This document shows, piece after piece, positions 2,661-32,525 of a DNA stretch of 64,000 nt (the stretch's first letter is position 1; each line of letters opens with the position of its first letter). A model generated the notes under the pieces. It did no database searches. It saw only the letters and a list, made by a program, of their open reading frames with translations, and was not told the origin of the DNA. The position numbers and the translations under genes were made by a program. This DNA is from a virus (Duplodnaviria > Heunggongvirae > Uroviricota > Caudoviricetes), in the IMG/VR virus record IMGVR_UViG_3300027692_000003, one strand, 5' to 3'.

Positions 2661-2960
2661 TCAGCGAGCACGGCCTGGCCAGCGGATGACACTGGCAGCC
2701 AGGGAGCTGCCGTTACCTACCATCAGAGGCATGGATCTCCTTGAGGACCCGGCCTCGAAGCCGCCCGCGGCCAGGAGGTCAGTCCAGCCCTTGCGGTCCT
2801 CGGGGCGGCTGGCAGTCGCGGACACCCCGTTGTCCGTGAACTCGCCGATGACTTCCCAGCCCCGGCCGGCGGCGTACTTCCTCCCGGCGTCAAGCTGCCG
2901 GTCGATCGACACGGACTCTTCCTTGGTGACACTGAGCCGGGCATACAGGACACAGCGGTG
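2661..2960 (-). pseudogene. Serine recombinase (resolvase) N-terminal catalytic-domain fragment, truncated
   Basis: VLYARLSVTKEESVSIDRQLDAGRKYAAGRGWEVIGEFTDNGVSATASRPEDRKGWTDLL matches the resolvase catalytic-Ser motif (YxRxS...Q). The expected DxLVVxxLDRLxR segment and the recombinase domain are absent, and the frame degenerates. Confidence 0.5.
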
Positions 2961-3318
2961 CACGCCTCCTGACGGGTTCACGGGCGGCGCTCCAGGCAGT
3001 CCCGGCACCCGAACGCGGGTGAGCTGCACACCAGGGCGCCTAGCCGGCCGCAGCTCCCGCAACTGGACACCTCGCCCGCTGGGAGCGCCCAGAGCACGAG
3101 ATTGTCCGTCCTCCCGCAGGTACTACAGGAGGGCCTGCCGTCCGCAGCCTTGCAGTCGGGAGCAAGGAGCATCATGGTCAGGAGCCGCTCGGCCAGCATC
3201 TCGTCGATGACGGGCAGCGGCCCGCTGGCACTCACAGCACAGTCCCGTCTCCAGTTGGTAGCCGGCTGGTCACGATCCTGAGGATACGCCAGGGCCGGAT
3301 GTGACAGTATGCAGTCCC

Positions 3319-7589: not shown

Positions 7590-8645
7590 GTGACCGGAAT
7601 CGAGATCTGCCGGCCCGTCCCGGGCGGAGACGACGCGCGGCCATCGGCCGAACGGCTCGTGCTCAGCTGGCTGGCCACCAAGAGATCCGCGAACACCCGG
7701 TTCGGCTACGGCGCCGATCTCGGCGTGCGGCTCCTGCGTCCCGGCGCGGCCACCATCGGCGAACCACGCCCCGCCCGCGCACCGGACTGGCTCAGCTACT
7801 GCCGGATGGCCGGCGTCGATCCGCTCGGCGCGGTACTCGAGGAGCATGCCGCGGTCTGGATCCGCGGCATGGAAGCGGCCGGGCTCTCCCCGGCCACCGT
7901 CGCACGCAAGCTGTCAGCAGTGTCGTCCTGGTATGCATGGCTGAAGAGAAAAGGCCACGTCGCTGCCAACCCAGCCGAGGACCTGCCCCGGCCCTACGTC
8001 AACCCGGACATCTCCACGACTCCCGGCCTGACAAGGGATCAGGCACTCGCGATGCTCGCGGCCGCCGATGATGCGCCCTGGCCGCAGTCCGCCCGCAACG
8101 CCGCGCTGACGGCGCTCCTCCTGTTCACGGGGGCGCGGGTCAGCGAGGCCTGCGGCGCCGCCCTGGCCGACCTCGGGATGGACCGCGGCCACCGGGTGCT
8201 GTGGGTCACCCGCAAGGGCACTGAAGGCAGGCAGGCACTCGGGCTCCCGGCACCGGCGACCATGCGGCTGGACGCCTACACTGCCGGACGCGCCGACCTC
8301 GAGCGGCTGCCCGCCATCGCCGGGACCCGGGGACGTGACCGGCCGCTGATCGCCACATCCACCGGGAAGCCGATGCGGCCGGCCGACGTGTGGGAACTCA
8401 TGCGGCGCCTGGGCCGCGCCGCGAAGCTGCCCCCGGAACTGGTCGCGAGGATGGGCTCCCACTCAATGCGGCACAGCTTCGCCACCCTCTACCTTGACGC
8501 CGGCGGGAACCTGCGGGACCTGCAGGACGCCATGGGCCACAAGGACCCGCGGACGACACGCCGGTACGACCGGTCGCGGGGCGCCCTTGACCGCTCGCCG
8601 GGCTACAGGCTCGCTGAGTACCTCTCGGACGGAGACCGGGCATGA
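7590..8645 (+). CDS. int: tyrosine site-specific recombinase / phage integrase (Xer-like)
   Basis: C-terminal catalytic motifs ...GARVSEA..., HSMRHSFATLYLDAGGNLRDLQDAMGHKDPRTTRRYDRS (R..H..R..Y). GTG start. Confidence 0.85.
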   Translation: MTGIEICRPVPGGDDARPSAERLVLSWLATKRSANTRFGYGADLGVRLLRPGAATIGEPRPARAPDWLSYCRMAGVDPLGAVLEEHAAVWIRGMEAAGLSPATVARKLSAVSSWYAWLKRKGHVAANPAEDLPRPYVNPDISTTPGLTRDQALAMLAAADDAPWPQSARNAALTALLLFTGARVSEACGAALADLGMDRGHRVLWVTRKGTEGRQALGLPAPATMRLDAYTAGRADLERLPAIAGTRGRDRPLIATSTGKPMRPADVWELMRRLGRAAKLPPELVARMGSHSMRHSFATLYLDAGGNLRDLQDAMGHKDPRTTRRYDRSRGALDRSPGYRLAEYLSDGDRA

Positions 8646-9979
8646 CAGCCACCCCTAAAGCGCTGACGGCGTGGACGGAGCTGAACGACCGGCAGCAGGG
8701 AACGCTGCGGGTCATCTACCAGATCGACCAGGCGAACGAGAAGTGGCGGCGGCAGCGCGGCACGAGCGGCAGCTACGACACGTCGCCCGCGTCGGAGTGG
8801 CGGCGCATCGACTTCGCGCACGACCCGTCCGGGCTGGCCACGACCGATATGCAGCTGCGCCTGGACACCGCGGGCTGGCATAACCAGGGGAACGGATCAA
8901 CGGTCGCCGCGCTCGCTGACCGTGGCATGCTCACCCGCGGGGAACGCGGCACGCTTCTCGGGGTGATGCTCACGGTCACGCTGACCCGCGAAGGACGCGC
9001 AGCCGCCCGCGCCGGGCTGTCCCTCCAGCCCGGCGGCGCCCCGAAAGCGGGGCTCCGCGAACGCGCGTGGGAAGTGCTCGCGCTGCTGTGGGCGGCCGGG
9101 CAGCGCGGCGAGACCCTGAAGTGGGGGTACTCGGCGACGATCGAGTTCGTGCTCATTGCCAAGCATGTGCCGGCGCTCGCCGAGCGGGTACCCGGCGGTT
9201 ACACGATCACCAGCCGCGGCCAGGACTTCTACCGGCAGCAGTACGCCGCGCACACCGCCGCGCACCCGGCCGTGCGCGCACCCCACCCCGACGGAGCAGC
9301 CGCCGAGCCGTGGCCCGCGGACGCCGGCCAGATCCTGGCCCGGCACCGCCGCCGCTACACGGAGCTGAGCATGGCATGGCAGGCCGAATGGGACGCGCAC
9401 AAGGACGCCGCAGCCGAAGCCAGCACTGCCGCACCGGACACGGGCGCTCTGCCCGTCGTCGTCGCCCAGATGGCCGCGGCCCGGCACCAGCTGTGGTGCG
9501 GCACCGCACAGCAGCGTGCGGCCCTGGCCGCCGCCCAGGCCGCCGAGCTGCACACCCTGGCCACCCGGGCGGCACGTACCTACGCTGTCGCGGCCCTGGC
9601 CGTATTCCGTGCCGCCGTCACCCGCACCGACCCGCTCGCCGGGCTCGGGGAACCACGCGACGACGACACGTGGGATGAGCCGCGCCTCGAGCCGCCGGCG
9701 GTAACCGGCATCCACGCCATCGATGAGCCCGCCCGGCGGCTGCACTCCGCTGCCGTCGGCGTGCCGGTGCCCCGGCGCGGCCCCGCCCCGAAACGGCGGC
9801 GCTCCAGCCGTCCCGTCACGGCACCGGAACGACCCGGCCAGCAGCTGGCACTCCTGGCCGGCTTCCTGAAAGAGCACACAGACGGGGGTGCTCTCCTGCG
9901 CCGACTCCACCCGGATTGCGGGGAGACGAAGGGCTGCCTAGAGCCAGCCGAAATGCTCAGCGGTATTACGCAGGACTGA
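8642..9979 (+). CDS. hypothetical 445-aa protein translationally coupled to int (ATGA overlap)
   Basis: The start ATG overlaps the int stop. Ala-rich, no recognisable domain. Confidence 0.6.
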   Translation: MTATPKALTAWTELNDRQQGTLRVIYQIDQANEKWRRQRGTSGSYDTSPASEWRRIDFAHDPSGLATTDMQLRLDTAGWHNQGNGSTVAALADRGMLTRGERGTLLGVMLTVTLTREGRAAARAGLSLQPGGAPKAGLRERAWEVLALLWAAGQRGETLKWGYSATIEFVLIAKHVPALAERVPGGYTITSRGQDFYRQQYAAHTAAHPAVRAPHPDGAAAEPWPADAGQILARHRRRYTELSMAWQAEWDAHKDAAAEASTAAPDTGALPVVVAQMAAARHQLWCGTAQQRAALAAAQAAELHTLATRAARTYAVAALAVFRAAVTRTDPLAGLGEPRDDDTWDEPRLEPPAVTGIHAIDEPARRLHSAAVGVPVPRRGPAPKRRRSSRPVTAPERPGQQLALLAGFLKEHTDGGALLRRLHPDCGETKGCLEPAEMLSGITQD

Positions 9980-12145: not shown

Positions 12146-12835
12146 TCACGTCACCGGGTGCATGCCGGGAGCGTTCCGCGTCATCACGAGCCGGTAGTTG
12201 TGCGCCTCTACCGCCTCGTTCACCAGGTCTGCCGTGTCGAGCGTCCCTATGAACACGTCCTCGTAGTGGTCTCCTGCAGGGGTCACGGCGTAGATGGTCC
12301 GGTCGTTGTGGGTGCCGGTACGCCAAGGCAGCGAGGAGAGGTCGGCGGGCTGCGCCGTGGCCTGCCGCTGCTCGGCGTAGCCTCGCAGCATCTCCAGCAC
12401 CTTCGCCCGCATGTCACCTAGCGTGGGGCCGCACTCCTCCAGAGCCCGGACCCCGATGCCGTCACCTTCGCGGAGCATCCCGAGCAGCAGGTGCTCTGTC
12501 CCGATGTAGTTGCAGCCGAGCGGGAGGGATTCCCGCAATGCCAGCTCGCAGGCTTTCTTGAGCCGGGGCGTGAACGGGATGTGGCCGCACGGCTTCTGCT
12601 GGCCGATGCCGATCCGCGCCACCACGGCCTCTCGCACCGCTGCCTCGGTGACCCCGAGGGCGATCAGCGCCTGCCCGGCGACGCCCTCACCCTCCCCGAT
12701 CAGCCCGATAGCGAGGTGCTCGGTGCCGATCCAGTTGTGGTTCAGGTCCCGCGCCGCCTGCTGCGCAAGCACGATGACCCGCCGTGCCCGGTCGGTGTAG
12801 CGCTCGAACATCAGGCTGTCCTCCATTCCGCTCAT
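12146..12835 (-). CDS. ClpC1 N-terminal-domain (double Clp_N repeat) homologue with ~85-aa C-terminal extension
   Basis: MFERYTDRARRVIVLAQQAARDLNHNWIGTEHLAIGLIGEGEGVAGQALIALG...IPFTPRLKK...CNYIGTEHLLLGMLREGDGIGVRALEECG is almost collinear with the ClpC/ClpC1 NTD (MFERFTDRARRVVVLAQEEAR...NYIGTEHILLGLIHEGEGVAA...). No AAA+ modules follow. Confidence 0.75.
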   Translation of the reverse strand: MSGMEDSLMFERYTDRARRVIVLAQQAARDLNHNWIGTEHLAIGLIGEGEGVAGQALIALGVTEAAVREAVVARIGIGQQKPCGHIPFTPRLKKACELALRESLPLGCNYIGTEHLLLGMLREGDGIGVRALEECGPTLGDMRAKVLEMLRGYAEQRQATAQPADLSSLPWRTGTHNDRTIYAVTPAGDHYEDVFIGTLDTADLVNEAVEAHNYRLVMTRNAPGMHPVT

Positions 12836-13198: not shown

Positions 13199-13390
13199 TC
13201 ACGAGCCTAGCGAATCCGGGTCGGCCAGCGTGATGTACGTCCGCTCGCCCCGGAGCACCCTCACGGCGTCGATGGCGTCGGCGACGCGCTGCACTGGCTC
13301 GCCCCACCGCTCCGCCAGCTTGCCCATCGGCAGGCCCCAGTCCGCTTCGGGGAGGGATGCGACCTCTTCCATGAGGTGCTCGAACGGCAT
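13199..13390 (-). CDS. hypothetical small protein (start MPFEHLMEE)
   Basis: The upstream part of the track ORF is Arg-rich artefact. Confidence 0.35.
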   Translation of the reverse strand: MPFEHLMEEVASLPEADWGLPMGKLAERWGEPVQRVADAIDAVRVLRGERTYITLADPDSLGS

Positions 13391-13392
13391 TT

Positions 13393-13596
13393 TCACGGGC
13401 GGGAGCCTAGCCGCTTCGCCTTGGCCGCCCAAGCGGTCTGGTCGACCTCGGCGATGAGCCGGGCCTGATGCTCGGCGAGGGTGATGCCGTGGTGCCACGC
13501 CGCCATCTGGACAGCTTCCGTGACGTCATGGGCGCGGTCGCGGATCCGGGCACACCTCATCTCGTCTGACATGTGCGGGAACGGGACTTCGGCCAT
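13393..13596 (-). CDS. hypothetical small protein
   Basis: ORF MAEVPFPHMSDEMRCARIRDRAHDVTEAVQMAAWHHGITLAEHQARL... Confidence 0.4.
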   Translation of the reverse strand: MAEVPFPHMSDEMRCARIRDRAHDVTEAVQMAAWHHGITLAEHQARLIAEVDQTAWAAKAKRLGSRP

Positions 13597-22659: not shown

Positions 22660-22884
22660 ATGGCCGTGACCCACACCAGACCCGACACCGGAGGTACGGC
22701 GATGCCGGACGGTACGCCGCTGCGGAAGATCCGCATGGACGACGACCTGTGGAAGCGGCTAGAGGAAACAGCCAAGCGCGCCGATCCAGACTCCAACCGA
22801 ACCGTCATCCTGCGGAAGTTCGCACGCTGGTACGTCGGCGACATAGACGAGATGCCGCAGCGGCCTGAGCCGAAGCGTTTCTGA
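22660..22884 (+). CDS. ribbon-helix-helix (CopG/Arc-like) DNA-binding protein
   Basis: LRKIRMDDDLWKRLEETAKRADPDSNRTVILRKFARWYVG is an RHH-type pattern. The upstream part of the 174-aa track ORF lacks coding character. Confidence 0.5.
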   Translation: MAVTHTRPDTGGTAMPDGTPLRKIRMDDDLWKRLEETAKRADPDSNRTVILRKFARWYVGDIDEMPQRPEPKRF

Positions 22885-23177
22885 TGGGCGGTCAGCCCGC
22901 GCCCGGATTCCGGAAATGCGACCCGATGAGCCTGCCCGAAGCCTGCTTCTGGGCAGTGGCCATCATCGGTGACGGCGTCAGCACGCCACGGGTCCATGAC
23001 TGGCTCAAACATGACGGCCGACATGCCGAGAGGACCCAAGTGCTCCGTGCCCTGAAGAGTGCCAGCCGCAGGCAGCCGCCGCTCATTGAATGCACGCACC
23101 AAGGCCGTGCGGGGAACGGGGATCCGGCCCGGTGGCGCCTCACCGCACATGGCCGCGACTACCTCGCGACATGCTGA
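22884..23177 (+). CDS. hypothetical protein (ATGA-coupled to the RHH gene)
   Basis: ORF MGGQPAPGFRKCDPMSLPEACFWAVAIIGDGVSTPRVHDWLKHDGRHAERTQVLRALKSASRRQ... Confidence 0.4.
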   Translation: MGGQPAPGFRKCDPMSLPEACFWAVAIIGDGVSTPRVHDWLKHDGRHAERTQVLRALKSASRRQPPLIECTHQGRAGNGDPARWRLTAHGRDYLATC

Positions 23178-23278
23178 TAGGTGTCCGGTCACCCCTCCGC
23201 CCCTTCCCCTGCTGCCGGGGTGAGCGGCGGCGCCGTACGGGCCGCTAACGCCTGCTTGACCCCGGCACCGTAACCAGC

Positions 23279-24913
23279 TCAGTCCTGGTCCTGGTCCTGC
23301 TCCGTACTGGCGGGGCCCGGTTTCCCGGTCCAGAGGATCTTCACGGAGTTCCTGACCGGGTTGTGCTTGGTATGTCCCGGGAAGAGCTCGATCTTCTGCG
23401 TGAGGATCCTGATGATGGCCCGCTTCTGGAGGACCGTCAGTGCATCCCACGCTGCCCGGACCCTGGGCTCGGGTCCGCCGAGCGGCATGTTCCGCAGGAC
23501 CGGGGAGATCGCGAGGCGGCGCCCCTTGCTGCGGAGCCGGCCGATGTCGGCCTCGAGGGTTTTCTCCAGCTGCGCGAGGACCCGCAGGCTCGGGGTGCCT
23601 GTCAGGGCATGGCTGTCGGTGGCTTCCCGCAGCCGCTGCTCTTTCTCCTCTGCCTCCGCGAAGTACTGCTCGGCATTGCGGCGCCGGTCCTGGCTGCTGG
23701 CGAGCGCCCGGAGGATGTCGGGGTTGGTGAGCCGGACGATGACTGACTCGGTGACGTACTCGTCAACCAGGGGCATGCGCCGGGCGGCGTGGCCCTTCGG
23801 GCAGTAGTAGTGGAAGAGCCCTGATCCCCTGGCCGTCTCGTTTCCCTGGACAGGCTTCGCGCAGATACCGCACTGGATGATGTAGGAGGCGAGGTAGCGG
23901 ACGTTCCCGTCGCGCCGCTTGCCCCTGGACCGTTCGGCGAGGACGCCGCGGGCCTGGGCTGCGAGGGCCTGGCTGAGGACCGGCGGCCAGATCGCCGTCG
24001 CGACGACCTGGCCGCGGTGCACCCGCTCCCCTGTGTAGGTGGGCCGCTTGATCATCAGGATCAGGGTCTGCCAACGCCAGTGCGTGCCCGCGACGATCTC
24101 CTCGAGCGCGGCTCTCTTCGCCGGGTCGGCCGTGGCGTTCAGCCGGCGCGCCGCCGCGGCTGCCCTGGGTGACAGGATCCCGCGGCGGTCGAGGTCGTCG
24201 CATATCTGCTGGAGCGGCTCGTGCAGGGAGACCCGCCGGGCTGCTTCCCGGATTACCTGGGCTTCTTCCTCGATGATGCGGACCTCGAGGAGTTCTCGGT
24301 CCGGGCCGTACACCCTCTCGTAGGCGTACACGCCGGGGCCGTGGGGACGGCCGGACTGCGCGTTGGCGCGCATGTCCCGCCGGACACGCTTGCTGGTCTC
24401 GTCGGAGGATTTCTCGTTGTGCATGCCTTCCATGAGGAGGGCCTGCCGGTCGGCGATGTTGTCCGGGTCATACAGGCGCTCGGCGCCGCTGTCGTAGAGG
24501 AGTGTTCCCGTGTCGCGGCACAGGTCCAGGAAGTGCGTCCAGGAGGCCATGGTCCGGTCACCGCGGGAGGTCTCGTGCATGACGAGGACCCGGGCGGGCC
24601 GCTGCGGGGAGTCCTCCCTGAGGACGGGGGTGCCTTCGAGTACCTCGATGAGCTCGTCCCAGTCGGGGCGGCGCCGGGTCGCGAAGCGGGACGCCGAGAT
24701 GTCGTCGTCGCTCCATTTCCGCTCGACCGGCCAGCCGTGGTCGGTGCAGGCCCGTACGTTGGCCCGGTCCTGCTGGACGATCGACCCGACTTTGTCCTTG
24801 CCGCGTTTCCTGCTCCTGCTGGCATCGCTGAGGCGGGTGTAGAGCCACGCGGGCAGGGGCCCGCGATCTGGAGGGAGAAGTGCCAGCGCGGGCAGCATGG
24901 TGCTATGGTACAT
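23279..24913 (-). CDS. large serine recombinase (serine integrase)
   Basis: N-terminal resolvase domain (YTRLSDASRSRKRG...SIVQQDRANVRACTDHGW), recombinase domain, and zinc-ribbon Cys cluster (CGICAKP...YYCPKGH). 544 aa. Confidence 0.85.
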   Translation of the reverse strand: MYHSTMLPALALLPPDRGPLPAWLYTRLSDASRSRKRGKDKVGSIVQQDRANVRACTDHGWPVERKWSDDDISASRFATRRRPDWDELIEVLEGTPVLREDSPQRPARVLVMHETSRGDRTMASWTHFLDLCRDTGTLLYDSGAERLYDPDNIADRQALLMEGMHNEKSSDETSKRVRRDMRANAQSGRPHGPGVYAYERVYGPDRELLEVRIIEEEAQVIREAARRVSLHEPLQQICDDLDRRGILSPRAAAAARRLNATADPAKRAALEEIVAGTHWRWQTLILMIKRPTYTGERVHRGQVVATAIWPPVLSQALAAQARGVLAERSRGKRRDGNVRYLASYIIQCGICAKPVQGNETARGSGLFHYYCPKGHAARRMPLVDEYVTESVIVRLTNPDILRALASSQDRRRNAEQYFAEAEEKEQRLREATDSHALTGTPSLRVLAQLEKTLEADIGRLRSKGRRLAISPVLRNMPLGGPEPRVRAAWDALTVLQKRAIIRILTQKIELFPGHTKHNPVRNSVKILWTGKPGPASTEQDQDQD

Positions 24914-24965
24914 CTTAGTAAGGGTTAAGATCCTACTAGCGGGCTGGAATTGCCTTAGCCCCTAC

Positions 24966-24997
24966 GGAACCACGGAACCACGGAACCACGGAACCAC
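24966..24997. repeat. (GGAACCAC)x4 perfect tandem octamer plus a degenerate fifth copy, in the intergenic region between the serine recombinase and the secreted-protein gene
   Basis: cggaaccacggaaccacggaaccacggaaccacgggacc read directly. Confidence 0.6.
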
Positions 24998-25158
24998 GGG
25001 ACCGAGCAGGCGGCCTGAACGGGCCGCTGCCAGGGACACTACCCGTCCTGGCCGCCCGGTGCCTGGTAACCGGACCCGTCCCGCCATGCCCGCGGGGACG
25101 GGGCCACAGCGGCCCGGCCGCAGGGTCCGGCCGCAGATCCAGGAAAGGCCATCCCAGA

Positions 25159-25943
25159 TGTCACTCAGGAGCAGGAGCGCCGCCACGTTCGCGGCAGCGG
25201 CCCTCATCATCCCCGCGTTCGCGGGGCTCGCGGCCGTGACGAGCGCGGGTGCCGCGAACGCGGCGACCCCGTCGTGCGGCGGCAGCTGCATCGACGTCTT
25301 CAGCCACCAGTTCGGCACGTTCGCGGACCCGTCATTCGTGATGGACTCGTTCAAGCAGGGCGACGTGGCCGGCACCCCGGTCATCCTGTTCCGCACCAGC
25401 AACAGCGACCCGGCTGAGGACTTCACCGTCGACGAGGAAGGCCTGGTGTCGCGGTTCTACGCCCTCGGCCTGGTCTCCCCGCAGCTCGCGCTTTTTTATG
25501 GCTGCACCTACACCGTCCTGGCCACCACGATCCCGTGCACCGGCTTCGACGGCACCGGCTACGACTTCGAGGCGTACGAGTTCATGTACTCCCCGTACGG
25601 CGTCCAGACCGGTCTCTGCACCGGCGTCGCCTCCACCGCGGTCGCAGGCGAGCACGTGACCCTGCAGCCCTGCGGCGTCACCAGCAAGACGCTGTGGATC
25701 GCGGCCGACGTGAAGGACTACGACGGCCACGGCGTCCCGACGGGACTGGAGTCGTTCGAGCAGCCCCTCGTGAACGGGTCGGACACCAACTTCTCGCAGC
25801 CGTTCGCGCTGGCCTACGGCACGTCCAGCTACCCGACTGACACCCCGCGGCCCCCGCTGTACACCGAGAACCTCCTCGGCTTCTCCGACGGCGAGATCGG
25901 CACCAACGAGCTGTTCAGCGCCGACACAGGCGTCCTCCCGTAA
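25159..25943 (+). CDS. secreted Cys-rich protein (signal peptide)
   Basis: MSLRSRSAATFAAAALIIPAFAGLAAVTSAGAANAATP signal-like. Mature part has paired Cys residues. The upstream part of the track ORF is not coding. Confidence 0.6.
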
Positions 25944-26552
25944 CACCTGGCTGTTACAGCAGGGCAGGAACCGGCCCAGGAACCTGGCCGGCGGTCATCC
26001 CGTGAGCGTGAGGGGCACGGATGACCGCCGGCCAGCCCGTTTCCCCAGGACATTCACGGAAGGCAAGGACAGGCAGTTGGCTGCTACCGCACTCGAGAGG
26101 CGCCCGGCGGCGGGCGGATGGCGGCAGGCGCGGGCTGGACTGCGCGGCCGTCACGCCGCCGCCCTCCCCGTTCCCCGCGTCGCCGCGGTGACCGGCCGCC
26201 GGTCCGGGCCGCAGGTCAGCGAAGCCTACGCGTCCGCTGCCCTCCTCGCCGCCCTCCGCGGACGCCGGCACCTCGCCGCCGCATCCGTGCAGTGCATGAC
26301 ACCCGAAGACATCGCCGCGTTCCGGACGGCCGCCCGGTACCTCGTCGAGCTGGGCGCCGCCCGGCTCCGGGACCTCGACCCGGCTGCTGTCCCCCCAGGG
26401 TTCACGGCCTGCTGGACCTGCCTCACCACCCCGGCCGGAACCGCGTGCACCAGCCCGTCCTGCCGCGAGGGCGCGTAGCGGATGCGGCCGGACCGGCCCC
26501 TGTCACCGGAGCCCCCCCCCGCTGCCTCCTCGGTAATGAGGAAGGGACCGCT

Positions 26553-27353
26553 GTGGGCAGGGCCATGATCGGCACGATCAGGACCGGTGCACGAAAGTCC
26601 CGGACCCTGGGGGATATCGCGGGCCTCGCCGGCTCCATCGCGGTGGACGGGCAGCGGCACCCGGTCACGGTCAGCCCGGCGGGCCAGCTCATCACCGGTG
26701 CCCGGCGCCTGGCCGCCCGCGAGCACCTCGGCTGGGTCACGGTCCCGGCCCGGGTGATCACGACCTTCCAGGAAGCTGTCGACGCACTGAACGCCGAGCG
26801 TGCCGACGGCCGGCACGCGAAGCCGATGACCGTCGCTGAGATCATCGACCTGGAATCGGTGATGGCCGCGGAACTGGAATGGTGGCCCAGGCAGCAGCCA
26901 GGGAACGGTGACCGGATCCGCGGGAACGAGCGCCGTGCGGCGGTGGCGGCCGCGCTCGGGGTCAGCACCACGGTGTACCGGGACGGGAAGAGGATCGCCG
27001 CTGCTGCCCGCGGCGAGGCGTACGGCAGGACACCGGAACTGGTCACCCCCCGGGCCCGGCAGGCAGCAGCGGACGCGATGGCCGCGATCCGGGCCGGGAT
27101 ACCGGTCCCGGAGGCATACCGGCAGTTCACTGCGGCAGCATGGCCGGCGGCGGCGCCCCGGCCGAACCCGAGGCAGCGGCAGGCCGTCGCATCCGCTGTC
27201 GGCGCCCTCGCCGGGATCGCCGGCGCCCTGGCCAGTACCGGGCCGCTCGACCCGTCGATCAGCCCTGACGTCATCGCCGGCTGGGACACGTCCCTGACTG
27301 AGGCGATGGGACAGCTCCGGACGTTCCGGACGACACTGAGGAAGGCACCCTGA
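26553..27353 (+). CDS. ParB-like N-terminal (ParB/Srx) domain protein (GTG start, GAGGAAGGG RBS)
   Basis: TLGDIAGLAGSIAVDGQRHPVTVSPAGQLITGARRLAAREHLGWVTVPARVI (GxxRxxA motif). The 145-codon upstream extension of the track ORF is Arg/Pro-rich artefact. Confidence 0.6.
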   Translation: MGRAMIGTIRTGARKSRTLGDIAGLAGSIAVDGQRHPVTVSPAGQLITGARRLAAREHLGWVTVPARVITTFQEAVDALNAERADGRHAKPMTVAEIIDLESVMAAELEWWPRQQPGNGDRIRGNERRAAVAAALGVSTTVYRDGKRIAAAARGEAYGRTPELVTPRARQAAADAMAAIRAGIPVPEAYRQFTAAAWPAAAPRPNPRQRQAVASAVGALAGIAGALASTGPLDPSISPDVIAGWDTSLTEAMGQLRTFRTTLRKAP

Positions 27354-28210
27354 TGGCTGGAACGAGAGTTAAGACAGCACCTGAACCCGCCGCCCGGTCG
27401 GGCACCGCCGTGATCGAGATGATCCCGGTACGGGAGCTCGGGACCGACCCGGCGGTCAACACCCGCCCGGTCGACGAGAAATGGGTCACCGACCGTGTCC
27501 CCGTCTACACCCCGGCCGGGGTCGGCACCCTCACGGTGTCCCGCCGCGACGACGGCGAGCTCATCATCCTGGACGGGCAGCACCGCGCCGAGCTGATGCG
27601 GAATGCCGTCGGCATACAGGCGGTCGCCCAGTGCGAGGTGTACCAGGGGCTGGCCCTCAGCCAGGAAGCCGCGATCTTCCGTCTCCTGAACGACAAGCGT
27701 GCCCTGACCCCGCTGCACCGGTTCCTGGCCCTCATCACCGAAGGTGACCCGTCGGCCAGGGATGTCGCGGAGATCGCCGGCCTGTGCGGCTGGACCATCG
27801 CCGACAACACCCGCAACGGCACCCTCCGCTGCATCGGAGCCGTCCAGAAGATCCACCAGCAGGACAAGAACAGGAAGACCGGCGCCGACCCGGTGGCGCT
27901 CGCGCGGACCCTCCGCTGCATCACCGAGACGTGGGGCACCCGCGGTGACTCAGGATCGGCGTTCATCGTCGCCGGGATCGGCGGCGTCTTCGTGCAGTAC
28001 GAGGCGGCGGTCAAGCCTGAGATCATGACCGACCACCTCAAGACCGCGTACACCGACGCGACGGCACTGATCGCCCACGCCAGGGGCCTGGTCCAGTACG
28101 ACCGCGGCTCGATCGCGAACAGCGTCTCCAAGCTGGCGGTCAGGACATACAACAAGCGGCTGCAGTCCCGTAAGATCCCAGGCTGGCGCGGAGACGCCTT
28201 CAACGACTGA
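27353..28210 (+). CDS. DGQHR-motif (DndB-like / ParB-nuclease superfamily) protein, start overlaps the upstream stop (TGATG)
   Basis: IEMIPVRELGTDPAVNTRPVDEKWVTDRVP...LTVSRRDDGELIILDGQHRAELM. Confidence 0.6.
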   Translation: MAGTRVKTAPEPAARSGTAVIEMIPVRELGTDPAVNTRPVDEKWVTDRVPVYTPAGVGTLTVSRRDDGELIILDGQHRAELMRNAVGIQAVAQCEVYQGLALSQEAAIFRLLNDKRALTPLHRFLALITEGDPSARDVAEIAGLCGWTIADNTRNGTLRCIGAVQKIHQQDKNRKTGADPVALARTLRCITETWGTRGDSGSAFIVAGIGGVFVQYEAAVKPEIMTDHLKTAYTDATALIAHARGLVQYDRGSIANSVSKLAVRTYNKRLQSRKIPGWRGDAFND

Positions 28211-28227
28211 GGACAGGACCATCACCA

Positions 28228-28557
28228 GTGACACCCCCCCCCGTTGATCTCGCGGTAATCAGGGAACGGAATTCGGCCTGCATTACTGACCTCGTGACCA
28301 TGACCGTGCTCCGCAAGATGCCGTCCGCAGCCGAGGGACCGGCGATGTGGGAGCGCCTGGTGGAGTCCCTCCGGGATGTCGTGGTGATGGGAGGCGAGAT
28401 AGAGCGGCTGCGGGCGGGCCGGTACAAGATCCGTGACATTCATGCCCCGGCCCCGTCGGGTGACCCGTCGGTGCAGGGGGCGATCTGCACCGGCTGCTCC
28501 CTCCACGGCTCCCTGGTGACATGGCCGTGCGTGACCTGGAACGCTGTAGCGGAGTAA
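28228..28557 (+). CDS. hypothetical protein; GTG start followed by a C9 tract encoding PPP
   Basis: ORF VTPPPVDLAVIRERNSACITDLVTMTVLRKMPSAAEGPAMWERLVESLRDVVVMGGEIERLRAGRYKIRDIH... Confidence 0.4.
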   Translation: MTPPPVDLAVIRERNSACITDLVTMTVLRKMPSAAEGPAMWERLVESLRDVVVMGGEIERLRAGRYKIRDIHAPAPSGDPSVQGAICTGCSLHGSLVTWPCVTWNAVAE

Positions 28558-28687: not shown

Positions 28688-28828
28688 CAGTGCCGTGTCC
28701 GCGGTGCCGGCATGGTCCGGGCACAGCCGCCCCCCCTTTTTCCCTGCGCGAGCCCCGCAGGACGCAGGGGGCAGCGGCACCCCCGTCCCCGTCGTACCGT
28801 GCCGGCACCGGGGACACGGCACATCCCG
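28688..28828 (+). ncRNA. structured RNA candidate: 23-bp near-perfect long-range inverted repeat enclosing ~90 nt with an internal C7T5 tract and a CCCTGCG/CGCAGGG hairpin (Y RNA-like Ro-binding stem candidate)
   Basis: GTGCCGTGTCCGCGGTGCCGGCA (~28691) pairs with TGCCGGCACCGGGGACACGGCAC (~28803). No ORF with coding character. Lies upstream of rsr. Confidence 0.35.
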
Positions 28829-28984: not shown

Positions 28985-29115
28985 GCATGACCCTGGCGGG
29001 TCGAAGATGTCCGGTTACCACTGTTAATGGAGAGGTCGCAGGTTCGAGACCTGCCGGCCGGGGCAACCCGGCCGTAGCTCAGCTGGCAGAGCACTTAAAC
29101 CCCGGACGTCACACC
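28985..29115 (+). ncRNA. tRNA-like structured RNA module 1 (YrlA-type Y RNA candidate) with permuted order T-arm / closed acceptor-like hairpin / D-arm
   Basis: CCACTGTTAATGG is an anticodon-arm-like hairpin. GCAGGTTCGAGACCTGC is a T-arm-like hairpin with a TTCGAGA loop. CGGCCGGG-GCAA-CCCGGCCG is an 8-bp stem with a GNRA tetraloop. TAGCTCAGCTGGCAGAGCA is a D-arm. A flanking CCGGTTA/TTAAACCCCGG stem is possible. Confidence 0.4.
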
Positions 29116-29169: not shown

Positions 29170-29280
29170 GGCCCCTGGCGGGTCGAACGAGTCCCGGTTA
29201 TCACAAGTTCGATTCTTGTAGGCCCCACCCCTTTGCGGGGCCTTCGCTCAGTGGCAGAGCATCCGGTCCTCACCTCACTC
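29170..29280 (+). ncRNA. tRNA-like structured RNA module 2 (tandem paralogue of module 1)
   Basis: Shares CCCTGGCGGGTCGAA-N4-TCCCGGTTA with module 1. ACAAGTTCGATTCTTGT is a T-arm. GGCCCC...GGGGCC is a hairpin. TTCGCTCAGTGGCAGAGCA is a D-arm. The TTATCCGCC(N)GG(R)CC motif recurs at ~28964, ~29118 and ~29279. Confidence 0.4.
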
Positions 29281-29347
29281 ATCCGCCAGGACCCCCGTCA
29301 CCGCCCCGTGTCCAGTTCAGGTCGCCCGTACCCCGGAAGGCGCAGCC

Positions 29348-31033
29348 ATGCCCCGTGATCCCCTGGCCTCCGTCACCACCCTCGCCACCCCGCAGAACCA
29401 GCCCGTCCCCGGCCGTGCTGACCAGGTACGGGATAACGCCGGCGGGTACGTGTTCGCGAAAGACCTGTGGACCAGGCTCGAGGATTTCCTGATCCTCGGC
29501 ACGGCCGGCGGGACGCATTATCTCGGTGAGGACAAGCTGACTGCTGACAACGCCGACGTGGTGTTCGAGGCGATCCGGGAGGACGGGCCGCGTGCCGTCA
29601 CCCTCCTCACGGACATCTCAGCATCGAGACCGCCCAGGGCACCGAAGAACCGGGGGTGCCTGTTCACGCTCGCCGCCGCGTCCGCGTCCGGCAACCCCGC
29701 TACGGTGCAGGCCGTCAAGGCGGCGGTACCCCTGGTCGCCCGGACCACCGGTCATCTCGCTGCCCTGTACGGGTACCGGAAGCAGTTCAAGGCGGCGGCG
29801 ACCCCCCGCGGGTACTCGTCGGTGGAGGGGCGGGCGTGGCGGTCCGCGCTTGCCGGCTGGTTCCTGACCGGGGACCCGGACTCGGTGGCGTGGCGGGCAT
29901 GCAAGGCGAAGTCGCGGAAGACTCCCGCCGGGGAGGACATGGCGCTGCGGGACATCATCCGCCTCGCCCACCCCAGGCCGGCCACTGCGGAGCAGGCGGC
30001 GCTGCTGGGGTGGCTGACCGGGAAGACCAGCGACGAGCAGGCCGCCGCGCTGCTGCCCGCCGTCGACGCGTACCTGACCGCCCGCGCCGTCACCACCGAG
30101 ACTGAGGCGGTCCGGGTGGTGACGGACCGGCGGGTCCCGTGGGAGTACCTGCCGTCGAAGTTCCAGGGATCGGCGGCAGTGTGGGAAGCACTCGCACCGG
30201 TCGCGGGGGTAACGGCGCTGCTGCGGAACCTGGCCCGCATGACCAGGATCGGCACCATCGCCCCGTTCGCCGCCGCCAATGTGGAGGTGGCACGGCGGCT
30301 CACCGACCCGCAGGTGCTGAGGCAGGGCCGGATACACCCGATGGACGTGTTCCTCGCCCTGCGGGTCTACCAGTCGGGCCGGTCCCAGCCGAACCCTGAC
30401 GAGCCGCCCAGCACGTGGCAGCCCGTCGCGGACATCTCCGACGCACTGGAGGAGGCGTACAGCCTGTCGTTCGGGCATACCGAGCCATCCGGGCGGCGGC
30501 TCCTGGTCGCCGTGGACTCGTCCGGGTCCATGACCGGGAAGGTGTACCGGAACGGCCCGGTAGTGCACCCGGTCACGTTCGGCGGATCGCCGATCGGCAC
30601 CCCGTATGAGGTGGCGTGCGCGGTCGCAGTCCAGATGAAGCGGATCGAGGGCGGCAACGTCCATGTCATCGACGTCGACGGCGCCGCGCACCCGTCGAAG
30701 GTGACCGCCCGGACGACCCTGCGGGAAATCAGCTCGTGGAAACCCAGCGGGGACCGCACGGACCTGTCCCTCCCGTTCATGTACGCGGCCCAGTATGACC
30801 TGAGGGTCGACGGGTTCCTGATCCTGTCCGACATGGAGACCTGGGCCGGGGGGCAGCACCCTTTCCAGGCCCTGTCCGCTTACCGGGCCCGGTACAACCC
30901 GCACGCGAGGGTGGTCGCCGCGGCGATCACTCCGGCGGGTCACGCCATCGGCGAGCCCGGCGACACGGGTGTGCTGAACATTGCCGGGATGGACTCCTCG
31001 CTGCCGCAGGTCATCGCCGGGTTCCTCCGGTGA
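29348..31033 (+). CDS. rsr: Ro60 orthologue (TROVE domain + C-terminal vWA with MIDAS)
   Basis: GGYVFAKDLWTRLEDFLILGTAGGTHYLGEDKLTADNADVVFEAIREDGPRAVTLL aligns with human Ro60 [52 protein letters not shown]. C-terminal LLVAVDSSGSMTG is a MIDAS DxSxS motif. GGAAGG RBS. Confidence 0.85.
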   Translation: MPRDPLASVTTLATPQNQPVPGRADQVRDNAGGYVFAKDLWTRLEDFLILGTAGGTHYLGEDKLTADNADVVFEAIREDGPRAVTLLTDISASRPPRAPKNRGCLFTLAAASASGNPATVQAVKAAVPLVARTTGHLAALYGYRKQFKAAATPRGYSSVEGRAWRSALAGWFLTGDPDSVAWRACKAKSRKTPAGEDMALRDIIRLAHPRPATAEQAALLGWLTGKTSDEQAAALLPAVDAYLTARAVTTETEAVRVVTDRRVPWEYLPSKFQGSAAVWEALAPVAGVTALLRNLARMTRIGTIAPFAAANVEVARRLTDPQVLRQGRIHPMDVFLALRVYQSGRSQPNPDEPPSTWQPVADISDALEEAYSLSFGHTEPSGRRLLVAVDSSGSMTGKVYRNGPVVHPVTFGGSPIGTPYEVACAVAVQMKRIEGGNVHVIDVDGAAHPSKVTARTTLREISSWKPSGDRTDLSLPFMYAAQYDLRVDGFLILSDMETWAGGQHPFQALSAYRARYNPHARVVAAAITPAGHAIGEPGDTGVLNIAGMDSSLPQVIAGFLR

Positions 31034-31559: not shown

Positions 31560-32525
31560 ATGGGATGGTTTATCTTCGCGGTCCTGCTCGCCATCATCGG
31601 CGCGCTCGCGCTGGCTGGCGGCGGCCTGGCGAAAGGCGAGTATAAGCGCGCCTACGGCGGGAAGCCGGAGCCGTGGGACTGGTCACTGCCAGTCCGGGCC
31701 GCCGGCGGCTTCGTGCTTCTGCTCTCGTTCGGCCTGTTCGCGGTGTCGGGCCTGAAGTCGGTCCCGGTGAAGAACATCGGCGTCCCGCAGGTATTCGGTG
31801 CGGTGACCGGCACCGTGCAGGGGCCCGGGATCCACGAGACGTGGACGCCGTGGCTGCACCTGACCGACGTGGACGAGACCGTCCAGACCACGACGTTCGA
31901 GGACTCCGGTAACGACACCGGGTCATCATGCAACGGCGGCCTCGCAGTCCGGATCGGCGGCCAGCAGACCGCGTGTGCCGACGTGACGATCCAGTGGCAG
32001 ATCCTGCCGGCAGCCGCGGACTCCCTGTTCAGCGACTACGCCAACCAGGGCAACCTGATGACCGAGATCACCAATGCCGTGGTGCTGCGCGAGTTCAAGA
32101 CCGTCGTCAACCAGGTCGTGGGTGACTACAACCCGATCACCGACGTGGAGTCCGTCGCGAATACGAACTCGGCGACCAGCGTGTTCTCCACGTTCGCGCC
32201 GACAATCCAGGCGGACATGACCCGTGACATCGGGTCCCGGATCAGGATCATCAGTGTTCAGCTGCCGCTGATGCATTACGACGCCACGGTGGAAGCCGCA
32301 CTGCAGTCGATCGCGAAGGAGAACGCGAGCTACGCCGTCGCTGTCGAGGAAGTGAAAGTCGACCAGGAGCAGGCCCTGGCCTACCGGCAGCTCGGCACAC
32401 CGTCCGAGAGCGCCCTGATCAGCGAGTGCCTCTCCGACGTGAAAGCAGCAGGCAGCAGCTGGCCGGTCAACGTCCAGTGCTTCCCGGGTGCCAGCTCAGG
32501 TGTGGCACTCTCCCAGGGAGGGTGA
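31560..32525 (+). CDS. membrane-anchored SPFH/band-7-like protein
   Basis: N-terminal TM MGWFIFAVLLAIIGALALAGGG, then a prohibitin/stomatin-like region (IQWQILPAAADSLFSDYANQGNLMTEITNAVVLREFKTVV...AALQSIAKENASYAVAVEEVKVDQEQALAYRQLG). Confidence 0.5.
   Translation: MGWFIFAVLLAIIGALALAGGGLAKGEYKRAYGGKPEPWDWSLPVRAAGGFVLLLSFGLFAVSGLKSVPVKNIGVPQVFGAVTGTVQGPGIHETWTPWLHLTDVDETVQTTTFEDSGNDTGSSCNGGLAVRIGGQQTACADVTIQWQILPAAADSLFSDYANQGNLMTEITNAVVLREFKTVVNQVVGDYNPITDVESVANTNSATSVFSTFAPTIQADMTRDIGSRIRIISVQLPLMHYDATVEAALQSIAKENASYAVAVEEVKVDQEQALAYRQLGTPSESALISECLSDVKAAGSSWPVNVQCFPGASSGVALSQGG

What the first reader, a model, noticed from the sequence alone, without database searches (positions are those of the whole stretch)
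22660..28557. Second recombination module: RHH + large serine integrase + secreted protein + tandem ParB-like/DGQHR pair inside the same element
One element carrying both a tyrosine and a large serine recombinase is unusual. The 6-kb block may be a nested integrative island (satellite-like) or a partition/defence cassette. The ParB-superfamily pair (classical GxxRxxA ParB N-domain, then a DndB-like DGQHR protein) is translationally coupled (TGATG). It resembles neither a simple parAB system (no ParA ATPase) nor the dnd cluster.
Basis: partly seen in the sequence, partly recalled or inferred. Interest (0 to 1): 0.6.

Follow-up and report, generated by a model that had tools for sequence, protein, structure and literature searches.

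The report
Phage integrase region with ParB-like pair
This block is the ordinary integration and accessory-gene region of a large temperate actinobacterial phage, and its two ParB-like genes are a widespread phage gene pair of unknown function, not a partition system, a dnd system or a nested island.

Summary
They are a small RHH-like gene, a 544-aa large serine integrase, a signal-peptide protein, and a ParB_N-like gene joined by TGATG to a DGQHR-motif gene. A Xer-like tyrosine recombinase lies 15 kb away.

The window comes from a 165-kb, 69% GC phage assembly that closes on itself. I found no evidence for a nested island: no flanking repeats, no composition shift, and no replication or packaging genes. 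The one related phage lineage carries the block at the same place.

The DGQHR protein belongs to Pfam DUF6551, a large family with a ParB/Srx-fold N-domain (about 12,000 clusters at 50% identity). In 10 other loci, a DUF6551 gene directly follows a partner gene. In most of them the pair sits next to a repressor/cro-type switch, usually near an integrase. There is no ParA and no Walker A motif anywhere in the 64 kb, and no PADLOC hit.

Three things are new here. Partner proteins share a C-terminal domain. This lineage's partner has degenerate CTPase motifs. A conserved 27-nt direct repeat brackets the pair only in this lineage. The pair's function is still unknown.

The parts
22660..22884 (+). 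Small DNA-binding gene, probably ribbon-helix-helix. It diverges from the minus-strand early operon (start codon at 22607) across 52 bp, so it is likely part of the genetic switch rather than of the recombination machinery.
   Evidence: Pfam RHH_1 14.1 bits, below cut-off. PHROG Arc-like E=0.008. The related phage has an unrelated AlpA/HTH_17-like 71-aa gene in the same slot.
23279..24913 (-). Large serine recombinase (phage integrase), 544 aa.
   Evidence: Pfam Resolvase and Recombinase, both above cut-off. PHROG 95 integrase 1.5e-49. YTRLS motif at 25-29 and a zinc-ribbon CxxC...CPKGH motif. About 30% identical to mid-genome serine integrases of Gordonia, Streptomyces and Mycobacterium phages.
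24919..24964 (.). Candidate attP or int control site: a 46-bp imperfect dyad in a low-GC stretch directly upstream of the int start codon.
   Evidence: 14 of 22 arm positions are complementary around a central dinucleotide, which ranks in the top 0.15% of positions in 20-34 kb. It is almost invariant between the window and L004, apart from the central GG/CT and three arm positions. No attB, attL or attR is available, so this is inference only.
24964..25003 (.). Tandem repeat (ACGGAACC) x5 in the int / secreted-gene intergenic region.
   Evidence: The related phage has only one degenerate copy.
25158..25943 (+). Secreted protein of unknown function: 261 aa, Sec-type signal peptide with an ANA|A cleavage motif, 6 Cys. 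A candidate lysogenic-conversion or accessory gene.
   Evidence: Sequence read. Gene call from the source collection. No Pfam, NCBIfam, PHROG, PADLOC, PDB or phage-database match. 78-80% identical homologue in L004/L013.
26077..26478 (+). Small Ala/Arg-rich ORF with a Cys-rich C-terminus. Its real start is uncertain.
   Evidence: Called by the source collection. 66-73% identical in L004/L013. No family match.
26512..26541 (+). Copy 1 of the conserved direct repeat C9-G[CT]TG-N6-CGGTA[AC]T[GC]A, 12 nt upstream of the partner gene start.
   Evidence: There are only two copies in 64 kb, against 0.03 expected. The copy is conserved at the same place in L004 and L013.
26553..27353 (+). Partner protein, 266 aa. 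It has a degenerate ParB_N domain (GARR instead of GERR, and no EN..R box III), a central helix-turn-helix, and a conserved C-terminal helical hairpin.
   Evidence: Pfam ParB_N 17.5 bits, TIGR00180 28 bits, PHROG 12047 1.2e-9. The C-terminal domain was recovered by jackhmmer in the partners of six loci and nowhere else among 1,996 ORF fragments. The AF2 model has low confidence: pLDDT 58.8 overall, 71-86 in the C-terminal helices.
27353..28210 (+). DUF6551 protein, 285 aa. It has a ParB/Srx-fold N-domain with DGQHR (residues 74-78) and a helical C-terminal domain with no clear structural match. Its start overlaps the partner's stop (TGATG).
28234..28263 (+). Copy 2 of the conserved direct repeat, 24 nt downstream of the DUF6551 stop codon.
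28300..28557 (+). Small ORF of unknown function: 85 aa from the ATG at 28300, or 109 aa from the GTG at 28228. This is the last gene of the finding.
   Evidence: GC3 0.81-0.85. Called as 109 aa by the source collection. No family match.

Best explanation
The block is the integration and accessory region of a large temperate actinobacterial siphophage. It is not a second, nested mobile element.

**Integrase (family shown; role as the phage's own integrase inferred).** The large serine recombinase is the phage's own integrase. It lies between the late/lysis arm (minus strand, about 33-64 kb and beyond) and the early arm (minus strand, 10-22.6 kb). The attP site most likely sits in the conserved low-GC dyad directly upstream of int (inferred).

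**Small DNA-binding gene (inferred).** The RHH-like gene faces the early operon across 52 bp. It more likely belongs to the genetic switch than to recombination.

**Other genes (inferred).** The secreted protein and the small ORFs are accessory genes.

**The two ParB-superfamily genes.** They are one copy of a widespread two-gene phage module.
- *Shown:* a partner protein with a variable N-terminal DNA-binding head (ParB_N and/or HTH) and, in many cases, a shared C-terminal helical domain. It is translationally coupled to a DUF6551 protein.
- *Shown:* the DUF6551 N-domain has the ParB/Srx nucleotide-binding fold with an invariant DGQHR motif.
- *Inferred mechanism:* the partner binds phage DNA through its HTH, and its C-terminal hairpin docks the DUF6551 protein, which acts as an ATP/CTP-gated switch. 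Together they form a ParA-independent nucleoprotein complex that controls transcription or DNA handling near the lysis-lysogeny switch. This would work like KorB or Noc rather than like a segregation ParB.
- *This lineage:* the partner's own CTPase motifs are degenerate, so nucleotide control would rest on DUF6551. The pair sits outside the early operon and is bracketed by a conserved 27-nt repeat, which may be its binding site (inferred).
For: **Phage context**
- Tail tube, a 1,607-aa ORF in the tape-measure position, a GH25 lysin and a Gp80-like fibre lie at 34-60 kb.
- The window is identical to ENA scaffold_12 (165,194 bp) and runs across its end/start junction with a 55-nt overlap.

**Integrase**
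- Homologous serine integrases sit mid-genome in actinophages.

**No island signature**
- No flanking repeats, flat GC, no tRNA.
- The relative L004/L013 has the same order: early operon, small DNA-binding gene, int, secreted gene, small ORF, partner, DUF6551.

**Conserved dyad upstream of int**
-.

**Pair synteny**
- In M. abscessus prophages, mycobacteriophage Ramsey, Gordonia phage RayTheFireFly, Staphylococcus phage IMEP5, an Actinomadura island and four metagenomic phage contigs, the DUF6551 gene directly follows a partner gene.
- In 7 of these 10 loci the pair follows an annotated or Pfam-supported repressor with a cro-like HTH gene. The exceptions are L006, L011 and L020.
- Stop and start overlap in 10 of 11 lineages.

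**Family size and distribution**
- 12,064 representatives of 50%-identity clusters at E<=1e-3, nearly all 250-300 aa.
- 52 phage records against 7 plasmid records.

**Fold**
-.

**Nucleotide binding**
- Phage DUF6551 proteins bound CTP or ATP in DRaCALA assays. The ATP binder has the P-motif GQHRIVA (PMC12704722).

**Partner C-terminal domain**
-.

**Against partition and known defence systems**
- No ParA or Walker A motif. No PADLOC hit.
Against: - No lysogen, attB, attL or attR was found, so the integrase's role and the attP assignment are not demonstrated.
- Between the window and L004/L013, the int-to-DUF6551 stretch is 81% identical in DNA. The similarity stops abruptly 11 bp past the int stop codon, and the left-arm genes are only 31-58% identical in protein or not detectably related. 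The block therefore behaves as an exchangeable mosaic module. This fits modular phage evolution but does not exclude independent mobility.
- The right boundary could not be seen, because both related contigs end inside or just after the DUF6551 gene.
- In this phage the pair is not in the canonical position after cro, and it faces away from the early operon. Inferring function from synteny in other phages may not carry over.
- The 27-nt repeats are not palindromic, unlike typical ParB sites.
- The proposed docking interaction and all biochemical activities are untested.
- Only 64 kb plus about 10 kb of the 165-kb genome was inspected, so a distant ParA cannot be excluded.
Confidence: 0.62

Rival explanations
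1. Nested integrative element. The stretch from int to the last small ORF would be a separate serine-integrase island (satellite-like or cargo island) that inserted into the phage genome and can move on its own.
For: - The block is far more conserved between two phage lineages (81% nt) than its left flank, and the homology edge lies sharply just past the int stop codon.
- A second recombinase of another family exists elsewhere in the genome.
- Serine integrases leave no detectable repeats, so the absence of repeats does not count against this reading.
Against: - Both lineages carry the block at the same backbone position.
- The sharp left edge is explained by a variable cargo slot: a HerA-like three-gene insert in L004/L013 and a doubtful ORF here.
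- There is no replication, repressor or packaging-hijack gene in the block.
- Composition and codon bias match the rest of the genome.
- int lies where temperate actinophages keep their own integrase.
- The ParB-like pair is a normal phage backbone module elsewhere.
Confidence: 0.07
2. ParA-less or host-ParA-dependent partition. The pair would maintain the 165-kb genome as a plasmid-like prophage, with the Xer-like tyrosine recombinase resolving dimers.
For: - The assembly closes on itself at 165 kb.
- A Xer-like recombinase is present.
- Both proteins have the ParB/Srx fold.
- Two copies of a conserved repeat flank the operon and could act as centromere-like sites.
Against: - No ParA and no Walker A motif in any frame of 64 kb.
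- The partner scores below the TIGR00180 and ParB_N cut-offs and lacks the GERR glutamate and the EN..R box.
- No LG[KR]GL ParA-interaction motif is visible in its sequence.
- The same pair occurs in integrating phages carrying tyrosine integrases.
- The DUF6551 search of the plasmid collection found matches in only 7 of 72,556 records.
- A circular assembly is also what a circularly permuted or terminally redundant virion genome produces.
Confidence: 0.08
3. Prophage-expressed defence or anti-defence cassette. The pair, perhaps with the secreted protein, would be expressed from the lysogen and would act on incoming or host DNA as an NTP-dependent nuclease or sensor, like other ParB/Srx-fold defence proteins (DUF262/GmrSD, DndB-type).
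For: - In this phage the pair faces away from the early operon, and its neighbours are accessory-type genes: the secreted protein, Rsr/Y RNAs and an SPFH protein.
- The adjacent slot in the relative holds a HerA-like cassette typical of defence islands.
- The DGQHR motif is shared with DndB-type proteins.
- Some family members also hit DUF262.
Against: - No PADLOC model matches either protein.
- No nuclease domain or catalytic motif was detected beyond the ParB/Srx core.
- In most other loci examined (7 of 10) the pair lies in the lytic early operon right after cro, not on the repressor side.
- TIGR03187 scores well below its cut-off.
Confidence: 0.15

Closest known systems
Pfam DUF6551 proteins of temperate phages (PHROG 1033, annotated 'ParB-like partition protein' or 'ParB-like nuclease domain protein'). 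Examples: mycobacteriophage Ramsey gp49, M. abscessus prophiGD57-2 gp14, and the Staphylococcus phage IMEP5 gene downstream of its 'ParB'.
   Same: - Same family by HMM (36.6 bits, above cut-off) and the same length class.
- The invariant DGQHR, E105 and A106 are shared.
- The gene is preceded by a translationally coupled partner gene.
- No ParA is present.
- Phage members were reported to bind ATP or CTP (PMC12704722).
   Different: - Only 20-38% identical to database phage members.
- Here the pair is not directly downstream of a repressor/cro pair, and it points away from the early operon.
- It lies next to a serine integrase rather than a tyrosine integrase.
- It is bracketed by a lineage-specific conserved 27-nt direct repeat.
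Orphan ParB-CTPase-fold DNA clamps that regulate rather than segregate: KorB (with KorA) of plasmid RK2, and Noc
   Same: - No dedicated ParA is needed for the regulatory function.
- A two-protein arrangement with a small or HTH partner is conceivable.
   Different: - No sequence-level membership: TIGR00180 and the Noc model score far below their cut-offs.
- The DUF6551 C-terminal domain has no match to the KorB or Noc DNA-binding domains.
- The P-motif is GQHR, not GERR.
- No palindromic operator was found.
- Clamp formation and sliding are untested.
DndB / DGQHR-domain proteins (TIGR03187) of phosphorothioation systems
   Same: Both have the literal DGQHR motif on a ParB/Srx core. DndB-like proteins also bind ATP/GTP (PMC12704722).
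   Different: - TIGR03187 scores 25.4 bits against a cut-off of 58.85, and only residues 52-135 align.
- No Pfam DndB hit.
- No dndCDE-type or sulfur-transfer genes among the proteins scanned.
Actinophage large serine integrases (phiC31, Bxb1 and phiJoe type)
   Same: - Resolvase catalytic domain with YxRxS.
- Recombinase domain and a zinc-ribbon motif.
- Located between the late and early arms, with a conserved dyad immediately upstream of the gene.
   Different: - About 30% identity to the nearest database phage integrases.
- attP, attB and the directionality factor are unknown.
- A Xer-like tyrosine recombinase is encoded in the same genome.

Membership tests
Large serine recombinase (phage integrase) | N-terminal resolvase catalytic domain with the nucleophilic serine | tested here: met
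   PF00239 35.8 bits against a cut-off of 23.3. YTRLS at residues 25-29.
Large serine recombinase (phage integrase) | Recombinase domain (DBD1) followed by a zinc-ribbon/coiled-coil domain (DBD2) | tested here: inconclusive
   PF07508 36.4 bits against a cut-off of 21.1. A CxxC...CPKGH motif lies at 353-380, but no Pfam zinc-ribbon model hit was reported.
Large serine recombinase (phage integrase) | A cognate attP of about 40-50 bp with imperfect dyad symmetry that recombines with a host attB | tested here: inconclusive
   A candidate 46-bp dyad at 24919-24964 is conserved in L004. No attB, attL or attR is available, and the activity cannot be tested with these tools.
ParABS partition system | Adjacent ParA (deviant Walker A ATPase) | tested here: not met
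   No KGGxGK[ST] motif, and no [AG]x4GK[ST] motif at all, in six frames of the 64 kb. The remaining ~91 kb of the genome was not inspected.
ParABS partition system | ParB that meets the ParB/RepB/Spo0J model, with intact CTPase motifs (GERRxRA, ENxxR) | tested here: not met
   TIGR00180 28 bits against 58.45, and PF02195 17.5 bits against 26.3. The partner has GARR, and ADGRHAK where relatives have DENxxRK.
ParABS partition system | Palindromic parS sites | tested here: inconclusive
   Only a non-palindromic 27-nt direct repeat flanks the operon. Binding was not tested.
DndB / DGQHR domain (TIGR03187) | Score at or above the curated cut-off of the DGQHR model | tested here: not met
   25.4 bits against 58.85, matching residues 52-135 only.
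DndB / DGQHR domain (TIGR03187) | DGQHR motif | tested here: met
   D74-G75-Q76-H77-R78, invariant in 47 homologues.
DndB / DGQHR domain (TIGR03187) | Neighbouring dndCDE or other DNA-modification genes | tested here: not met
   None among the 30 window proteins scanned with Pfam or NCBIfam. The scan did not cover every small ORF.
Pfam DUF6551 | Score at or above the Pfam gathering threshold over most of the model | tested here: met
   36.6 bits against 26.8, covering model positions 32-197 of 242. A profile of 47 homologues finds 12,064 cluster representatives of matching length.
ParB/Srx structural superfamily | ParB/Srx alpha/beta N-domain fold | tested here: met
   [not shown]
ParB/Srx structural superfamily | Nucleotide (CTP/ATP) binding | not testable with these tools
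   Reported for other phage DUF6551 proteins (PMC12704722). Not measured for this protein.
Ribbon-helix-helix (CopG/Arc/MetJ) regulators | Match to an RHH model above its cut-off | tested here: inconclusive
   PF01402 14.1 bits against 20.5. PHROG Arc-like E=0.008. Both cover residues 19-57.
Phage satellite / integrative island | Occurs independently of the carrier phage, with its own junctions | tested here: not met
   It was seen only inside the same phage backbone in both lineages found. IMG/VR and metagenome scans found no other copies. Sampling is thin.
Phage satellite / integrative island | Own replication, regulation or packaging-redirection genes | tested here: not met
   No such domains in any block protein.

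The most novel reading that the evidence does not exclude
The partner/DUF6551 pair may be an unrecognised, very widespread two-component nucleotide switch of temperate phages. A DNA-binding partner, with interchangeable heads and a shared C-terminal docking hairpin, would recruit an ATP/CTP-binding ParB/Srx-fold protein to phage DNA beside the lysis-lysogeny switch. In this lineage the pair would have become a repeat-bracketed, relocatable cassette whose partner has lost its own CTPase motifs. The two C-run-containing 27-nt repeats would be its loading or regulatory sites.
Probability: 0.25. Interest if true: 0.55.

Novelty: new member of a known kind. Interest (0 to 1): 0.3.

Why it matters
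The block itself is ordinary, so the suggestion of a phage-within-a-phage can be set aside.

What remains of interest is the partner/DUF6551 pair. The family has about 12,000 clusters at 50% identity. In most loci examined here it occupies a fixed, prominent position next to the genetic switch of temperate phages of Actinobacteria and Firmicutes, including clinically relevant M. abscessus and S. aureus prophages. Members are reported to bind ATP or CTP. No biological function is known.

This locus adds three testable leads:
- a shared partner C-terminal domain that may dock DUF6551;
- a natural variant in which the partner's CTPase motifs are degenerate;
- a conserved candidate DNA site that flanks the operon.

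Tried and rejected
- **Near-identity search** of 20-32 kb against 50,697 phage records: no match. The tail-tube protein, the 445-aa ORF and the secreted protein also have no phage-database match.
- **IMG/VR scans** with the DUF6551 protein and with the integrase found nothing. The attP-candidate 18-mer gave no hit. The 27-nt repeat pattern gave one chance hit in a 41% GC contig.
- **Metagenome scan** with the DUF6551 alignment found nothing. The scan with Rsr found only chromosomal or short Rsr loci with no link to the block, so the right boundary of the shared module was not resolved. Both related contigs end at the DUF6551 gene.
- **Genome scan** gave one distant locus, in Actinomadura.
- **Repeats and RNA genes.** The search around the block found only short, chance-level pairs flanking the whole block. 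No tRNA was found, and no Rfam hit reached gathering thresholds.
- **PADLOC:** no hit for any block protein.
- **AF2 model of the partner** was too poor (pLDDT 58.8) for a fold search.
- **PDB sequence searches** were uninformative for the RHH-like gene, the secreted protein and the DUF6551 profile.
- **Flanking repeats in other loci.** No analogous repeats surround the pair in eight other loci.
- **Promoter and terminator scan:** no promoter-like sites. The terminator-like sites all lie inside coding sequence and are not above chance.
- **Literature.** I found no functional study of the pair. How unusual it is for one phage to carry both a tyrosine and a serine recombinase was not quantified.

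Full report
**Observation**

The window is 66-74% GC throughout. A GC3-based gene call and the gene calls stored with the source contig agree on the genes between 22.6 and 28.6 kb:

| Coordinates | Strand | Product |
|---|---|---|
| 22660-22884 | + | 74-aa gene |
| 23279-24913 | - | 544-aa gene |
| 25158-25943 | + | 261-aa gene |
| 26077-26478 | + | small ORF |
| 26553-27353 | + | 266-aa gene |
| 27353-28210 | + | 285-aa gene |
| 28228/28300-28557 | + | small ORF |

- **544-aa protein.** It is a large serine recombinase. Pfam Resolvase and Recombinase both score above cut-off, and PHROG integrase gives 1.5e-49. It has YTRLS at residues 25-29 and a CxxC...CPKGH zinc-ribbon motif.
- **261-aa protein.** It starts with a Sec-type signal peptide. 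It matches nothing in Pfam, NCBIfam, PHROGs, PADLOC, PDB sequences or the phage collection.
- **74-aa protein.** It gives two weak hits, on the same residues, to ribbon-helix-helix models.
- **266-aa protein.** It has a sub-threshold ParB_N match with the motif GARRLAA.
- **285-aa protein.** It carries a literal DGQHR motif and passes the Pfam DUF6551 threshold. It fails the TIGR03187 DGQHR cut-off.
- **Coupling.** The stop of the 266-aa gene and the start of the 285-aa gene overlap as TGATG at 27351-27355.
- **Tyrosine recombinase.** A Xer-like tyrosine recombinase lies at 7590-8645.

Two small corrections apply: the secreted gene starts at 25158, and the 97-aa ORF after the RHH-like gene is doubtful.

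**Context**

The window is phage DNA.
- A tail tube protein, a 1,607-aa ORF in the tape-measure position, a Gp80-like fibre protein and a GH25 lysin lie on the minus strand between 34 and 60 kb.
- Small early-type genes run on the minus strand from 22.6 kb down to 10 kb.
- The window is 100% identical to ENA metagenome scaffold_12 (165,194 bp). It reads across that scaffold's end/start junction with a 55-nt overlap. The genome therefore assembles as a circle of about 165 kb. This is expected for a circularly permuted or terminally redundant phage genome, or for a plasmid-like one.
- Nothing in 50,697 phage records resembles it at the DNA level.

The serine integrase lies between the late/lysis arm and the early arm. 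This is where its ~30%-identical homologues sit in Gordonia, Streptomyces and Mycobacterium phages.

**Is the block a nested island?**

- No repeat pair of note flanks it, there is no tRNA, and neither GC content nor GC3 shifts.
- The absence of repeats is not informative by itself. Serine integrases exchange a 2-bp core, which is established knowledge of the family.
- One related lineage was found: JGI contigs L004 and L013. It has the same gene order: early operon, small DNA-binding gene, integrase, secreted protein, small ORF, partner, DUF6551.
- DNA identity is 81% from 11 bp past the int stop codon to the contig end inside or after DUF6551. The left-arm genes are only 31-58% identical in protein or unrecognisable.
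- The sharp left edge coincides with a variable cargo slot. It holds a HerA-like three-gene insert in the relative and little or nothing here.
- The small DNA-binding gene differs between the two phages. It is RHH-like here and AlpA/HTH_17-like in the relative.
- The block carries no replication, repressor or packaging genes.

I read this as ordinary phage mosaicism around the phage's own integration module. Independent mobility is not excluded, because the right boundary could not be observed, but nothing positive supports it.

**attP candidate**

A 46-bp imperfect dyad at 24919-24964 lies directly upstream of the int start codon. Its arm complementarity is 14 of 22, in the top 0.15% of positions in the region. 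It sits in a low-GC stretch that is almost invariant between the two phages, apart from the central dinucleotide and three arm positions. It is a reasonable attP or int control candidate, but unproven. Next to it, (ACGGAACC)x5 is specific to the window.

**The ParB-like pair**

*Homologues and synteny.*
- tblastn of the DUF6551 protein finds 52 phage records (Mycobacterium, Staphylococcus, Gordonia and others) at 20-31% identity.
- The partner matches the gene immediately upstream in the M. abscessus prophages, and the upstream gene of Staphylococcus phage IMEP5.
- Annotated contexts share one plan. The partner is a gene of about 100-330 aa, and the DUF6551 gene follows it directly. In most loci the pair comes after a cro-like gene that faces a repressor, with an integrase usually nearby.
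- This holds for prophiGD57-2 and phiGD20-1, Ramsey gp48/gp49, RayTheFireFly gp49/gp50, Staphylococcus phage IMEP5, and four metagenomic phage contigs.
- An Actinomadura rayongensis island beside a tyrosine integrase has an HTH partner followed by DUF6551.
- Stop and start overlap in 10 of 11 lineages.
- The integrase in those loci is of the tyrosine type, or none is in view. The pair therefore has no specific tie to the serine integrase.

*Family size and distribution.* A profile of 47 homologues retrieves 12,064 representatives of 50%-identity clusters at E<=1e-3 and 3,935 at E<=1e-30. The listed top hits are 247-310 aa. Only 7 of 72,556 plasmid records hold a match.

*Structure.* The AlphaFold2 model of the DUF6551 protein is confident, with pLDDT 89.9.
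- The helical C-terminal half has no convincing match.
- D74, G75, Q76, H77, R78, E105 and A106 are invariant across the family.

*Published biochemistry.* A 2025 PNAS survey of the ParB-CTPase fold reported that phage proteins carrying DUF6551 bind CTP or ATP. The ATP binder has the P-motif GQHRIVA, the same GQHR as here (PMC12704722).

*The partner protein.*
- It aligns with ParB_N-HTH proteins of M. abscessus prophages, a metagenomic phage and many Staphylococcus prophages.
- In the window lineage the GERR glutamate is alanine, and the EN..R box is replaced by DG..A. Its own CTPase site therefore looks degenerate.
- An iterative search with its last 80 residues, against all ORF fragments of all fetched loci, recovers only the C-termini of the partner proteins of six loci. 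Two of these lack ParB_N.
- It did not recover the partners in Ramsey, Gordonia, Staphylococcus, L020 or L021.
- The AF2 model of the partner is poor overall but predicts two long C-terminal helices at pLDDT 71-86.

*Flanking repeat.*
- A 27-30-nt direct repeat, C9-G[CT]TG-N6-CGGTA[AC]T[GC]A, occurs exactly twice in the 64 kb, against 0.03 expected.
- One copy lies 12 nt before the partner start and the other 24 nt after the DUF6551 stop. Both copies are conserved at the same places in the related phage.
- No comparable repeat flanks the pair in eight other loci.
- Its role is unexplained. Binding sites for the partner or a cassette boundary are the obvious options.

**What the pair is not**

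- **Not parABS.** There is no ParA, and indeed no canonical Walker A motif in any frame of the window. The partner fails the ParB models.
- **Not dnd.** TIGR03187 is far below cut-off, and no dnd-type neighbours were found among the proteins scanned.
- **Not a known defence system.** PADLOC gives no hit.

**Most likely mechanism**

- *Shown:* a translationally coupled pair, consisting of a DNA-binding partner and a ParB/Srx-fold protein of a family reported to bind NTPs. It is conserved next to the genetic switch in many temperate phages.
- *Inferred:* the partner binds phage DNA and docks DUF6551 through its C-terminal hairpin. DUF6551 acts as an ATP/CTP-gated switch. The complex regulates transcription or DNA handling without ParA, in the manner of KorB or Noc.
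- *In this lineage:* the pair lies on the lysogeny/accessory side of the integrase, so a prophage-expressed role cannot be dismissed.

**Verdict**

The finding is real but ordinary. It is a phage integration and accessory region containing one more member of a known, functionally uncharacterised phage family. The nested-island reading is not supported.

Things found in passing are listed separately. They include two YrlA-like Y RNAs directly upstream of a phage rsr gene just outside the block.

Noticed in passing
window 29008-29111 and 29175-29292 (+), next to 29348-31033 (+): Two YrlA-like Y RNAs lie directly upstream of a phage-borne rsr (Ro60) gene with TROVE and vWA_Ro60 domains. They match Rfam RF02553 at 40.4 and 28.0 bits (E=4e-7 and 1.6e-3), both below the gathering score of 69. 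The closest Rsr relative (70% aa) sits in a bacterial chromosome after phoH-ybeY-era and has a similar upstream RNA, so the module looks host-derived.
   Followed up: partly
window 13389-13443; ENA ERZ28654700 scaffold_12: The window runs across the end/start junction of a 165,194-bp scaffold, with a 55-nt overlap. The genome therefore assembles as a ~165-kb circle, which is large for a siphophage with no match in the phage collection.
   Followed up: partly
window 26512-26541 and 28234-28263: A conserved 27-30-nt direct repeat with a C9 run brackets the ParB-like/DUF6551 pair. It has only two copies in 64 kb, and both are conserved in the related phage (C9 against C10 in one copy). Its function is unknown.
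   Followed up: partly
window 24964-25003: (ACGGAACC)x5 tandem repeat between int and the secreted-protein gene. The related phage has only one degenerate copy.
   Followed up: no
L004 3201-5667 / L013 4065-6531 (related phage); corresponds to window 22885-23278: The related phage carries a three-gene insert (171 aa, a HerA-like ATPase of 566 aa, 82 aa) between the small DNA-binding gene and the 3' end of int. The window has only a doubtful 97-aa ORF there. This looks like a variable cargo or defence slot.
   Followed up: partly
window 7590-9979 (+) and 2661-2963 (-): The Xer-like tyrosine recombinase overlaps by 4 nt with a 445-aa ORF that has no match in Pfam, NCBIfam or the phage collection. 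Both genes lie on the opposite strand to their neighbours. A ~100-aa resolvase-domain fragment lies 5 kb away.
   Followed up: partly
whole window, six frames: No canonical Walker A motif ([AG]x4GK[ST]) occurs anywhere in the 64 kb. By my own rough estimate about 8 chance hits would be expected, so none is unusual for a stretch this long. The absence also means no P-loop ATPase gene lies in this part of the genome.
   Followed up: no
window 28690-28822: A long inverted repeat (30-nt arms, 90% complementary, 73-nt spacer) lies in the non-coding stretch between the last small ORF and the Y RNAs. It may be another structured RNA.
   Followed up: no
window 12146-12835 (-) and 31560-32525 (+): The phage encodes a Clp_N-domain protein and an SPFH/Band 7 protein.
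   Followed up: no
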